Below are positions 27,001 to 30,000 of a stretch of DNA of 64,000 bases, piece after piece (within the stretch, counting starts at the first letter, position 1; the number at the start of each line of letters is the position of its first letter). The DNA lies in NCBI RefSeq assembly GCF_056712565.1, contig NZ_CM160072.1. One strand, written 5' to 3'. A program made the position numbers.

Positions 27001-30000
27001 CAACCAGATGAACTTCGGTATGGTTGACTTGTTCTGCCAGTTCGATCGTCTCTTTGACCAGTTTTTCATTGAGCGCATTATGGTACGGCTCTTCACTGGC
27101 GAGATTCACCGCCACCAGCGCCTTACCCCCTTCCGGCCACGGCTGGTCTTTCACCATCCACACCGGGCTTGGGCATTTGCGTAACAGATGCCAGTCCGTT
27201 GGCGTAAAAATCACCGCTTCCAGACGGTCATGTTGGTGCGCCATTTTTAGCACCAAATCGTGCCCGCCGCTGATCACTTCCTGAATGATGGCTTCGAAAG
27301 GACGGTTATGCCAGACCACTTTAATTTCAATGGGAACGCCAGCATTGAGATAATATTTTGCCTGCTCGTGGATCCAGGCTGTACGCTGGCTGATGACGCC
27401 CTGACGCATAGCGGTACGTTCGTCCGGAGAGAGCAGGGTGGTCATTTCGTATGAGAAGTCATAGATCGGCAAAAAGGCTTTAATTTTGCCACCAATCCGT
27501 TGATGTAAATAAACAGCTCGCCGCAATGCTGGTTGGTCGTCCTGGTTAGGATCGATAACAACGAGCATGTTCTGATACATAGCCATACAGGGTCTCCTTA
27601 CAACAACTGTCAACGCAGTTTGTAATTAAAAGATTAACCCATATCTGGTGAATGAAACAGTGATGAACCTTCTGTCAGATCAATAAATCAGAAAAATTTA
27701 ATGATATGACAGAAGGATAGTGAGTTATGCGGAAGAATCAGGCAACGTTACGCGTATGACCAGCAAGCTGGGCCAGCGCATCGTTATTTTCGATAGTGAT
27801 GTATTTACCTTTGACTGCCAGCATACCGCTTTTCTGGAAGCGACCCAGCAGACGGCTGATGGTTTCAACCGTCAGGCCCAGATAGTTACCGATATCACCA
27901 CGAGTCATCGTCAGGCGGAATTCACGAGGGGAGAAGCCGCGTTGGGCAAAACGACGGGACAGGTTGTAGATGAATGCAGCCAGACGTTCCTCGGCATTTT
28001 TCTTCGACAACAGCAGGATCATGTCCTGATCGCCTTTGATTTCACCGCTCATCAGACGCATCATCTGCTGACGCAGATTCGGCATTTTACCAGACAAATC
28101 GTCCAGCGTTTCGAACGGGATTTCACATACCATCGAGGTTTCCAGCGCCTGCGCGAAACTCGGGTGATGACCGCTGCCGATGGCATCAAATCCCACCAGA
28201 TCGCCTGCTAAATGGAAACCAGTGATTTGCTCGTCGCCTTGCTCAGTGATGGTATAACTTTTAATCGTACCGGAGCGGATGGCATAAAGCGATTTTAGTT
28301 CATCTCCAGCCTTAAACAGCGTCTGGCCTTTCTGAATAGGCTTCTTCCGCTCAATGATATTATCAAGCTGATCAAGCTCATGTTCGTTGAGTGTGAACGG
28401 GATGCAAAGCTGGCTGATGCTGCAATCCTGGCAATGGATAGCACAACCGCCAGACTGAATGCGCCGTATAATTCGCTTTTCCGGGATCATAGGTCTGCTC
28501 AAGCCGTAATTGATATTTGTCAATTTTAACATCTTTTTAGGGAGCAAGTAAGTCTAAGCAAACCTTAACAGCAGAGAATTCCGATATTAGATGTAAATAT
28601 ATGTCTATCTATTTGAAAACCCTTAAGTTGTTAAGGGTGACTTTACATAAAAGTGTGAACAAGCTGGCACAAATTGTTTAATGTTTACAGCAAAAGATAA
28701 CCTTCGTGGCGCAATAACCACTCTTTTCGCTGAACTCCGCCTGCATATCCGGTCATGGTGCCGTTTCGGCCAATAACCCGATGGCAAGGTACGACGATGC
28801 TGATGGGATTCGATCCGTTTGCCGCACCAACGGCACGCGCCGCGCCAGGGCGGCCTAATTGTTCAGCCAGTTGGCCATAATGCATTACCTGCCCGCAGGG
28901 GATAGTGCGCAGTGTTTTCCAGACTTCGCGCTGAAATGGCGTCCCCCCCGTGGCAGTGGGAAGCGTATCAATAATGCTAAGATTACCGGCAAAATATTCA
29001 CGAAGCTTGTCGCTTAAACCACCTGGGTTGGTGGCAGAAATGCGCTCATAGCCTTCTTTGCGATAATGGATGTCCAGCAGCTGCACCATGCGTTCGCTGT
29101 ACTCTTCCCATTCAACCGCCCGCAGGCGAAATTGCTCATCGCAAATCACCCACAGTGGACCCAGTGGCGTGGCAATTTTTTCTTCAAGTAATCTCAGCAT
29201 CCGTTCTCTCTTAAGACAAACGTGGGTAAATACCCGGACCTATCGGCAAGCCAACAAGATACCACGCCAGCAACATCAGCAGCCATACCACCAAAAAGAT
29301 TAATACTAACAAAAAGTAAGTACCAGGTTTCGCGTCTGGTTTGTCGCAGTATTTAAGCATAAAGCGATTTTTTGATTTTTCTGCCTGAAGAAATGAGGGC
29401 AAGCCATCACATGGATCGAGGGTGGGATAATTCCAGTCAGCGAAATTTTACCGTAGGCTATCTGTTATTTGATTCTGTGGCGTGATAGCCGCCAGACACC
29501 ACTGATCTCGTCACTCATTCCCCAATCCCGGCGAGAATGTGGTTATTTACAGAGCTAAAAAATGAATAAAAAAATAGAGCCTGTCGACATCCGCCAGACT
29601 CTACAGTACACACAGCAGTGCATCCTCGTCTTAAATCCGGCCTGGGGTCCTGGTGACCGGTGACAGTGTTATAACGGTTTTACCCATCCGTTGCCAATTT
29701 TCTTCAGTGACAGATTTCACGAAAATATAAGTTAAATCATTTGCCTTGTGATTGCATAATCATGCATCGTTAATCGACGAGTAAATTTACCGGGCGAGTA
29801 GCCCGTTCGACGCTTAAACATATTGCCGAACGATTCAGCTGAGGCATAGCCCAGACGATGGGCAATTTTGGTCAACGAATATCCATCATCAAGAAGCGTC
29901 ACTGCAGAAATAACGTGCATTTGCTGAACCCAGTGGCGAAATGTTAATCCCGTCTCTTTAACAAATAAGCGCATGAGTGTACGGCTACTGACGTTAATTT

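What the first reader, a model, noticed from the sequence alone, without database searches (positions are those of the whole stretch)
29566..29661. McaS sRNA retained next to the replaced abg region, possibly with a divergent 5' stem
The 3' two-thirds (GGATGCACTGCTGTGTGTACTGTAGAGTCTGGCGGATGTCGACAGGCTCTATTTTTTT) matches McaS as I remember it. The 5' hairpin here reads ACCGGTCACCAGGACCCCAGGCCGGA, which differs from my recollection of the K-12 sequence while keeping an ACCGG…CCGGA stem. If real, these are compensatory changes in a CsrA-titrating and mRNA-pairing sRNA. My memory of the K-12 5' region is not exact.
Basis: partly seen in the sequence, partly recalled or inferred. Interest (0 to 1): 0.3.

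Follow-up and report, generated by a model that had tools for sequence, protein, structure and literature searches.

The report
Ordinary B2-lineage allele of McaS sRNA
This is the well-known E. coli regulatory RNA McaS in the version carried by about a quarter of sequenced E. coli (the B2 lineage, including UTI89 and S88); its first hairpin loop differs from the lab strain K-12, but the fold, the CsrA-binding GGA motif and the csgD target-pairing region are kept, so the finding is ordinary.

Summary
McaS (Rfam RF00115, 112.8 bits against a cut-off of 42) lies at 29661..29566 on the minus strand. It differs from K-12 mcaS at 11 of 96 positions. Nine of these fall in nt 6-20 of the 5' hairpin; the others are C36A and A82G.

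Both alleles fold into the same 6-bp stem and 12-nt loop, with GGA at nt 12-14. Only one stem pair changed on both sides (G7-U20 to C7-G20) and one changed on one side. The other six changes are loop bases.

This is not a rare variant. The window is 100% identical to phylogroup B2 strains (S88, UTI89, type strain DSM 30083). The exact allele is in 1036 of 5426 complete E. coli genomes, and its hairpin type in about 1460.

The hairpin type travels with an AraC/EmrA/EmrB-like efflux cluster on the promoter side of mcaS, not with loss of abg. The abg operon is deleted rather than replaced, and some strains have the B2 hairpin with an intact abg operon.

The csgD-pairing core (nt 40-55), the loop 3 flhD site, the CRP-type promoter and the terminator are unchanged. 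Variability of stem 1 is already published (van Nues 2016), and McaS was detected on Hfq in UTI89. Novelty: already known. Interest: low.

The parts
29566..29661 (-). mcaS (IsrA/IS061) sRNA gene, 96 nt, B2-type allele. RNA nt n corresponds to window position 29662-n.
   Evidence: Rfam RF00115, 112.8 bits (gathering 42), full-length. 100% identical in 1036 complete E. coli genomes.
29637..29660 (-). Stem-loop 1 (RNA nt 2-25): 6-bp stem and 12-nt loop. The variable block is nt 6-20 (window 29642-29656).
   Evidence: RNAfold gives the same structure for the window and K-12 alleles, -8.9 against -8.3 kcal/mol. Stem pair probabilities are 0.90-0.97. Nine of the 11 differences from K-12 lie here.
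29648..29650 (-). 5'-most GGA (RNA nt 12-14) in the apical loop; the main CsrA-binding motif in K-12 McaS.
   Evidence: Conserved in all 15 homologues examined. Predicted unpaired probability is 0.79 here against 0.86 in K-12. Its role in CsrA binding comes from the literature (PMC10729762).
29607..29629 (-). Stem-loop 2 (RNA nt 33-52) with the second GGA (nt 37-39, window 29623-29625) and the csgD-pairing core (nt 40-55). The C36A substitution is at window 29626.
   Evidence: Nt 40-55 are a perfect 16-bp complement of K-12 csgD 5'UTR -96..-81. Duplex energy is -34.5 kcal/mol for both alleles. C36A breaks the C36-G49 pair and raises the predicted exposure of GGA 37-39 from 0.23 to 0.45.
29567..29604 (-). 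Stem-loop 3 and U tail (RNA nt 58-95): intrinsic terminator. Loop 3 GAUGUCG (nt 71-77, window 29585-29591) pairs with flhD. A82G is at window 29580 (U64-A82 becomes U64-G82).
   Evidence: Helix 3 is 100% paired in 15 homologues. Loop 3 is complementary to flhD UTR CGACAUC (nt 137-143) in both K-12 and S88. Its role in flhDC activation is stated in PMC4824073.
29668..29720 (-). mcaS promoter: -10 TATAAC (-12..-7, window 29668-29673) and a CRP-like GTGA-N6-TCAC site (-59..-46, window 29707-29720).
   Evidence: Both motifs are identical to K-12. Only 5 of 70 positions differ in -70..-1. CRP dependence is from the literature (PMC3634460; PMC4824073 supplement). The simple sigma-70 scan did not call this promoter.
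29732..30547 (-). AraC-family regulator gene. It runs in the same direction as mcaS, and its stop codon lies about 70 nt upstream of mcaS +1.
   Evidence: ORF list, RefSeq annotation of identical DNA, NCBIfam AraC-type HTH hits. The gene's 3' end together with the mcaS promoter and hairpin start is found in 1457 of 5426 genomes.
30641..33183 (+). EmrA/EmrK-like periplasmic adaptor (30641-31672) and DHA2/EmrB-like MFS permease (31669-33183), divergent from the AraC gene and lying between it and smrA.
   Evidence: NCBIfam TIGR00998 (2.7e-79) and TIGR00711 (2.8e-117, above its cut-off). Absent from K-12, where smrA directly adjoins the mcaS promoter.
29427..29555 (+). abgR 3' remnant (43 codons), convergent with mcaS as in K-12.
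   Evidence: tblastn gives 74% amino-acid identity to K-12 AbgR. The DNA aligns with the K-12 abgR 3' end at about 75-80% identity. Annotated as a LysR pseudogene in UTI89.
29214..29363 (-). abgT 3' remnant, directly upstream of ogt (28685-29200, minus strand).
   Evidence: tblastn gives 78% identity over 54 residues to K-12 AbgT. Annotated as a partial AbgT-family pseudogene in SK1144.

Best explanation
This is a functional mcaS gene in the allelic form typical of E. coli phylogroup B2. The RNA has three modules. Stem-loop 1 presents a GGA in a 12-nt apical loop for CsrA. Stem-loop 2 carries a second GGA and a 16-nt stretch that pairs with the csgD 5'UTR. Stem-loop 3 is the terminator and Hfq-binding end, and its loop pairs with the flhD 5'UTR. 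In this allele everything known to matter is kept: the CRP-type promoter, the stem 1 arms, both GGAs, the csgD core, loop 3 and the terminator. What differs from K-12 is mostly loop 1 sequence flanking the GGA, plus the two inner pairs of stem 1, which have drifted while staying paired. The most likely reason is weak constraint on those positions within an old, deeply diverged haplotype block that runs from the AraC-family gene through mcaS to the abgR/abgT remnants. It is not likely to be a recent or adaptive change. Shown here: the sequence, fold prediction, conservation, population frequency and linkage. Inferred: that regulation of CsrA/pgaA and csgD is equivalent to K-12. Open: whether the loop 1 contribution to flhD pairing reported for K-12 is retained.
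For: Identity as McaS. Same predicted fold and GGA exposure in both alleles. Promoter motifs identical. The csgD core duplex has identical energy in both alleles, and the csgD UTR is at least 99% identical in 4743 of 5344 genomes. Loop 3 and its flhD site are unchanged. The window is 100% identical over 20 kb to S88, DSM 30083 and other B2 strains. The exact allele is in 1036 genomes. The K-12-type hairpin is in 3904 of 5367 genomes. The AraC-linked hairpin type is in 1457 genomes, including ST131 and 536. The unconstrained flanks are as diverged as the loop: 11 of 38 positions in -108..-71, 4 differences within 7 positions at -28..-22, and about 20-25% in the abgR remnant. Meanwhile Ogt and SmrA are 99-100% identical. 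Across 15 homologues from Escherichia, Citrobacter and Pseudescherichia-like genomes, nt 44-94 are nearly invariant, while the 5' hairpin always differs except for its stem and the loop GGA. The literature says the same for stem 1: 'highly variable' (PMC4824073). UTI89 carries window 29300-29800 exactly, and McaS was recovered in Hfq pull-down RNA-seq of UTI89 (PMC4546395). So this allele is expressed and Hfq-associated.
Against: According to PMC10729762, the 5'-most GGA region of K-12 McaS overlaps a known McaS-flhD pairing site. Six of the 12 loop bases differ here, so functional equivalence for flhD is not guaranteed. C36A breaks a stem 2 pair next to the second CsrA site and may change CsrA affinity or csgD-site accessibility. 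No experiment on the B2 allele's targets was found in the held library. All structural statements rest on thermodynamic prediction.
Confidence: 0.85

Rival explanations
1. Adaptive retargeting. The B2 loop 1 sequence was selected because it changes what McaS pairs with, for example a different or stronger contact with the flhD 5'UTR. That would give B2 strains a lineage-specific setting of the switch between motility and biofilm.
For: In K-12, loop 1 overlaps an flhD-pairing site (PMC10729762). The B2 loop UCACCAGGACCCC has an 11-bp interrupted complementarity to flhD UTR nt 146-158 (-19.8 kcal/mol), a site conserved in K-12 and S88. The best K-12 loop duplex reaches only -9.3 kcal/mol. Substitutions cluster in nt 6-20 (p=1.9e-7).
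Against: The complementarity is marginal and was found after the fact: 46 of 1000 shuffled loops and 9 of 646 window tiles do as well. Part of the target site lies in a predicted GCGGU/ACCGC hairpin. The five SNPs in the S88 flhD UTR do not compensate for the loop change; T74G improves pairing with the K-12-type loop (-12.0 against -9.3 kcal/mol). Every lineage has a different loop, including E. albertii, E. whittamii and the cryptic clades, which fits drift better than a B2-specific adaptation. Neighbouring unconstrained DNA is similarly diverged.
Confidence: 0.1
2. Junction scar. The divergent 5' end marks the breakpoint where the efflux cluster was inserted or deleted, or where abg was lost, so the hairpin is partly foreign sequence.
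For: The hairpin type is almost perfectly linked to the AraC/EmrAB-like cluster: 1457 genomes against about 1463.
Against: Between the cluster and the hairpin lie 70 nt of promoter that are 93% identical to K-12, with the CRP site and -10 element intact. K-12 still aligns, with many mismatches, with the last ~38 nt of the AraC-family gene, so the structural breakpoint lies upstream of about -75. The abg deletion is on the other side of mcaS and is uncoupled from the hairpin type. The hairpin stays in register, with the same length, arms and GGA position.
Confidence: 0.03
3. Decaying gene. mcaS is losing function in B2 strains and the 5' changes are early pseudogene drift.
For: C36A disrupts a stem 2 pair. 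Neighbouring genes are decaying: the abg remnants, and the MFS permease is frameshifted in UTI89, SK1144 and ES1.
Against: The Rfam score is far above threshold. Promoter, terminator, GGAs and pairing regions are intact. The allele is 100% identical in 1036 genomes. McaS reads were recovered on Hfq in UTI89.
Confidence: 0.02

Closest known systems
McaS / IsrA / IS061 of E. coli K-12 (Rfam RF00115)
   Same: The same gene at the same locus, between smrA and the abgR/ogt side. It has the same CRP-type promoter motifs, the same three stem-loops and four GGA motifs. Nt 21-96 are identical apart from C36A and A82G, as are the csgD-pairing core and loop 3.
   Different: Nine of 15 bases in nt 6-20 differ: six loop bases and the two inner stem 1 pairs. 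An AraC-family gene ends about 70 nt upstream instead of the smrA intergenic region. Downstream, abgRABT is reduced to two short remnants.
McaS homologues of other Escherichia species, Citrobacter and Pseudescherichia
   Same: The design is modular: a nearly invariant 3' half (nt 44-94) joined to a fast-evolving 5' hairpin that always keeps a short GC stem and a loop GGA. The B2 3' arm CAGGCCGGA is shared with E69, E. whittamii and the cryptic-clade genomes, and differs by one base (AAGGCCGGA) in E. albertii.
   Different: Each lineage has its own loop sequence. Citrobacter uses ACCCG...CGGG arms in place of ACCGG...CCGG.
CsrB/CsrC-type CsrA sponges
   Same: They present GGA in hairpin loops to bind CsrA. 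McaS does this with two sites (literature: PMC10729762).
   Different: CsrB carries about 22 GGA motifs and acts only by titration. McaS also base-pairs with mRNAs through Hfq. No membership in this family is claimed.

Membership tests
McaS/IsrA sRNA (RF00115) | Matches the Rfam covariance model at or above the curated gathering score | tested here: met
   112.8 bits against 42, E=3.5e-20, model positions 1-96 of 96.
McaS/IsrA sRNA (RF00115) | Three stem-loop architecture ending in an intrinsic terminator with a U tail | tested here: met
   The RNAfold minimum-energy and centroid structures show stems 1, 2 and 3 followed by a run of seven U. Helix 3 is 100% paired across 15 homologues.
McaS/IsrA sRNA (RF00115) | Conserved locus between smrA (ydaL) and abgR/ogt, with a CRP-dependent promoter | tested here: met
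   The gene order is smrA, efflux cluster, mcaS, abgR remnant, abgT remnant, ogt. The CRP-like site and -10 element are identical to K-12. CRP dependence itself was not tested.
McaS/IsrA sRNA (RF00115) | Two CsrA-binding GGA motifs (loop 1 and stem-loop 2) | tested here: met
   GGA at nt 12-14 and nt 37-39 is present and conserved in all homologues. Predicted unpaired probabilities are 0.79 and 0.45. Binding was not tested.
McaS/IsrA sRNA (RF00115) | Complementarity to csgD 5'UTR binding site 1 | tested here: met
   Nt 40-55 form a perfect 16-bp duplex with csgD UTR -96..-81. The energy is -34.5 kcal/mol for both the window and K-12 alleles.
McaS/IsrA sRNA (RF00115) | Complementarity to the flhD 5'UTR through loop 3 | tested here: met
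   GAUGUCG (nt 71-77) pairs with CGACAUC (flhD UTR nt 137-143). Both are unchanged in the window allele and in the S88 UTR.
McaS/IsrA sRNA (RF00115) | Second flhD contact through loop 1, reported for K-12 | tested here: inconclusive
   Six of 12 loop bases differ from K-12. The published K-12 pairing could not be retrieved because the primary paper is not held. The predicted K-12 loop 1 duplex is no better than shuffles, and the B2 loop has a different, marginal match.
McaS/IsrA sRNA (RF00115) | Expressed, Hfq-associated transcript | not testable with these tools
   Literature only: McaS reads were found in Hfq pull-down RNA-seq of UTI89 (PMC4546395). UTI89 carries window 29300-29800 exactly.

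The most novel reading that the evidence does not exclude
E. coli carries two old, sharply different versions of the first McaS hairpin loop: K-12 type in about 73% of complete genomes and B2 type in about 27%. The B2 loop, together with C36A beside the second GGA, may change how McaS divides itself among CsrA, flhD and csgD. One possible route is pairing with flhD UTR nt 146-158. That would give B2/ExPEC strains a different setting of the switch between motility and biofilm.
Probability: 0.12. Interest if true: 0.4.

Novelty: already known. Interest (0 to 1): 0.1.

Why it matters
It matters little in itself. McaS is a characterised sRNA. The variable 5' stem-loop has been described in print, and this allele sits in more than a thousand public genomes. 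The practical point is modest. Nearly all McaS experiments used the K-12 allele, whereas many clinically important E. coli (ST95, ST73, ST131, strain 536) carry a loop 1 that differs at half its positions. They also carry a base change next to the second CsrA site. Anyone carrying K-12 results on flhD activation or CsrA titration over to ExPEC should check the allele.

Tried and rejected
(1) Covariation support for stem 1. On a MAFFT alignment of 15 homologues the named structure did not exceed the shuffle controls. This is partly because the Citrobacter and Pseudescherichia hairpins are misaligned. I folded each hairpin separately instead.

(2) Retrieving the primary papers that define the McaS pairing sites (Thomason 2012, Jorgensen 2013). 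They are not held under the PubMed or PMC ids I tried. I relied on secondary statements in PMC10729762, PMC4824073 and PMC3634460.

(3) Looking for compensating changes in the targets. The csgD UTR is essentially invariant. The S88 flhD UTR has five SNPs, none of which obviously compensates for the loop change.

(4) The B2 loop 1 complementarity to flhD nt 146-158. I kept it only as a weak lead after the shuffle and tile controls.

(5) The simple promoter and terminator scan. It missed both the mcaS promoter and its terminator, so I used alignment to K-12 and RNAfold instead.

(6) Literature search for a description of phylogroup-specific mcaS alleles. Nothing was found in the held library.

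(7) The junction-scar idea. Rejected because the 70-nt promoter between the cluster and the hairpin is 93% identical to K-12.

Full report
**1. What is at the coordinates**

Rfam's covariance-model scan of the whole window gives three hits. One is McaS/IsrA (RF00115) at 29661..29566 on the minus strand, with 112.8 bits against a gathering score of 42, E=3.5e-20, covering model positions 1-96. The other two hits are FnrS and MicC elsewhere in the window.

**2. Comparison with K-12**

I took K-12 mcaS from an MG1655-derivative record (L001:5981-6076). The two alleles have equal length and differ at 11 positions: nt 6, 7, 8, 9, 10, 15, 16, 18 and 20, plus C36A and A82G. That is 9 of 15 positions in nt 6-20 against 2 of 81 elsewhere (Fisher p=1.9e-7).

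**3. Structure**

- RNAfold gives both alleles the same stem-loop 1: six pairs and a 12-nt loop with GGA at nt 12-14. The energies are -8.9 kcal/mol for the window and -8.3 kcal/mol for K-12.
- In the full-length ensemble the GGA is predicted unpaired with probability 0.79 (window) and 0.86 (K-12). Stem 1 pair probabilities are 0.90-0.97 in the window allele.
- Of the six stem pairs, four are unchanged. C6-G21 becomes U6-G21, a change on one side. G7-U20 becomes C7-G20, a change on both sides. The other six differences are loop bases.
- 'Compensatory changes' therefore describes one pair, not the whole pattern. On a 15-sequence alignment the covariation measures did not exceed the shuffle controls.
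- C36A breaks the C36-G49 pair of stem 2 and raises the predicted exposure of the second GGA (nt 37-39) from 0.23 to 0.45.
- A82G turns a U-A pair in the terminator stem into U-G.

**4. Whose allele it is**

- Twenty kilobases around the gene are 100% identical to E. coli S88, the type strain DSM 30083 = ATCC 11775, an APEC O2:K1:H4 strain and many human isolates. I recognise these as phylogroup B2 from my own knowledge of the strains.
- The exact 96-nt allele is in 1036 of 5426 complete genomes. About 400 more, estimated from an evenly spaced sample of hits, differ by one base.
- The K-12-type hairpin is found full-length in 3904 of the 5367 genomes that have a match.
- A query spanning the AraC-gene 3' end, the promoter and the first 22 nt of mcaS is found in 1457 genomes, among them O25b:H4-ST131 and UPEC 536.
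- That number essentially equals the count of genomes without a K-12-type hairpin (5367-3904 = 1463).
- The hairpin is thus a roughly 73:27 dimorphism. The B2 form is linked to the neighbouring gene cluster.

**5. Genomic context**

- K-12 reads smrA, mcaS, abgR, abgA, abgB, abgT, ogt.
- The window reads smrA, DHA2/EmrB-like MFS permease, EmrA/EmrK-like adaptor, AraC-family regulator, mcaS, abgR remnant (43 codons), abgT remnant (about 50 codons), ogt.
- abg is therefore deleted, not replaced. The additional genes lie on the promoter side of mcaS.
- The two differences are separable. ES1, 631 and EC190329 have the cluster, the B2 hairpin and A36, yet also an intact abgR and abgA and K-12-type A82. 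In ES1 the first 200 codons of abgB are also present, where the fetched stretch ends. Their crossover point lies inside the invariant nt 37-81 of mcaS.
- About 1100 genomes have the window's abg-deleted form.
- The remnants are only 74-78% identical in protein to K-12 AbgR and AbgT, while Ogt and SmrA are 99-100% identical.
- The non-functional parts of the promoter region are also heavily diverged: 11 of 38 positions in -108..-71, and 4 differences within 7 positions at -28..-22.
- The CRP-like site (-59..-46) and the -10 TATAAC (-12..-7) are identical.
- The picture is an old, deeply diverged haplotype block in which functional elements are preserved and unconstrained positions have drifted. 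The non-GGA loop 1 bases are among those that drifted.

**6. Other species**

A pattern scan of one genome per species returned 12 loci. They include E. albertii, E. whittamii, cryptic-clade Escherichia, Citrobacter amalonaticus and Pseudescherichia vulneris.

- Nt 44-94 are nearly invariant across all of them.
- Every 5' hairpin differs, but each keeps a short GC stem and a GGA at nt 11-14, which lies in the loop in 13 of the 15 predicted hairpin folds.
- Citrobacter uses ACCCG...CGGG arms in place of ACCGG...CCGG.
- Over nt 6-20, by my own count on the sequences listed, the B2 and K-12 loops each differ from E. albertii at six positions, so neither is clearly ancestral.
- The B2 3' arm (CAGGCCGGA) is the one shared with the other Escherichia lineages.

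**7. What is already published**

- van Nues et al. [quoted passage not shown] They also say that stem 2 pairs with csgD, that the loop of stem 3 mediates flhDC up-regulation, and that there are two conserved GGA sites for CsrA.
- PMC10729762 reports four GGA motifs, two of which are CsrA sites. The 5'-most GGA matters more for CsrA binding and overlaps a known McaS-flhD pairing site. The second CsrA site overlaps the csgD-binding site.
- In the UPEC strain UTI89, McaS was among the known sRNAs recovered in Hfq pull-down RNA-seq (PMC4546395).
- UTI89 contains window 29300-29800 without a single difference. This allele is therefore expressed and Hfq-associated.
- I found no paper in the held library that describes the B2/K-12 dimorphism as such.

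**8. Target-pairing regions**

- McaS nt 40-55 are a perfect 16-bp complement of the K-12 csgD 5'UTR at -96..-81. The duplex energy is -34.5 kcal/mol for both alleles. The csgD UTR is at least 99% identical in 4743 of 5344 genomes.
- Loop 3 GAUGUCG is complementary to flhD UTR nt 137-143. Both are unchanged in the window allele and in S88.
- The one open point is loop 1. If it contributes to flhD pairing in K-12, half of its bases differ here.
- The S88 flhD UTR differs from K-12 at five positions (nt 36, 37, 54, 74, 159). None obviously restores pairing.
- The B2 loop has its own 11-bp interrupted match to flhD nt 146-158 (-19.8 kcal/mol). However, 46 of 1000 shuffled loops and 9 of 646 window tiles do as well. 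I treat this as a post hoc lead only.

**9. Verdict**

This is the normal phylogroup B2 allele of a well-characterised sRNA. Its difference from K-12 falls in the module already known to be variable. All elements with established function are conserved, except possibly the loop 1 contact with flhD. Novelty: already known. Interest: low.

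Noticed in passing
window 36528-36645 (+) and 43607-43727 (+): Rfam also finds full-length FnrS (134.8 bits) and MicC (121.3 bits) in the window.
   Followed up: no
window 29732-33183: An AraC-family regulator with a divergent EmrA/EmrK-like adaptor and a DHA2/EmrB-like MFS permease lies between smrA and mcaS. K-12 lacks it, and the AraC gene's 3' end with the mcaS promoter is found in 1457 of 5426 complete genomes. The permease is intact here (504 aa) but is annotated as frameshifted in UTI89, SK1144 and ES1.
   Followed up: partly
window 29214-29555; loci L007-L018: The abgR and abgT remnants are only 74-78% identical in protein to K-12, while the flanking ogt and smrA are 99-100% identical, so the deletion haplotype is old. 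E. albertii, the cryptic-clade Escherichia and one C. amalonaticus genome also lack abg, with remnants of different lengths. The other Citrobacter and the Pseudescherichia-like genomes lack it with no detectable remnant. This suggests repeated independent loss.
   Followed up: partly
L005 (ES1), L023 (631), L024 (EC190329), around mcaS: These are recombinant haplotypes. The B2-type AraC cluster, promoter patches, 5' hairpin and A36 are joined to a K-12-type A82 and an intact abgR. The crossover falls inside the invariant nt 37-81 of mcaS.
   Followed up: partly
L006 (ETEC1739) 2981-3852: mcaS is interrupted by an IS1 element. The 5' 61 nt and the 3' 43 nt of the K-12 allele flank the IS, and their 8-nt overlap is consistent with a target-site duplication.
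   Followed up: partly
S88 flhD 5'UTR (L021:26166-26363, minus) compared with K-12 (L019:799-996, minus): There are five SNPs between the B2 and K-12 flhD leaders (UTR nt 36, 37, 54, 74, 159). B2 McaS loop 1 is complementary to UTR nt 146-158 with marginal significance.
   Followed up: partly
all E. coli genome hits to mcaS: RefSeq annotation shows no feature under mcaS in any of the 80 listed hits ('none' under the match). Annotation-based surveys will therefore not see the sRNA.
   Followed up: no
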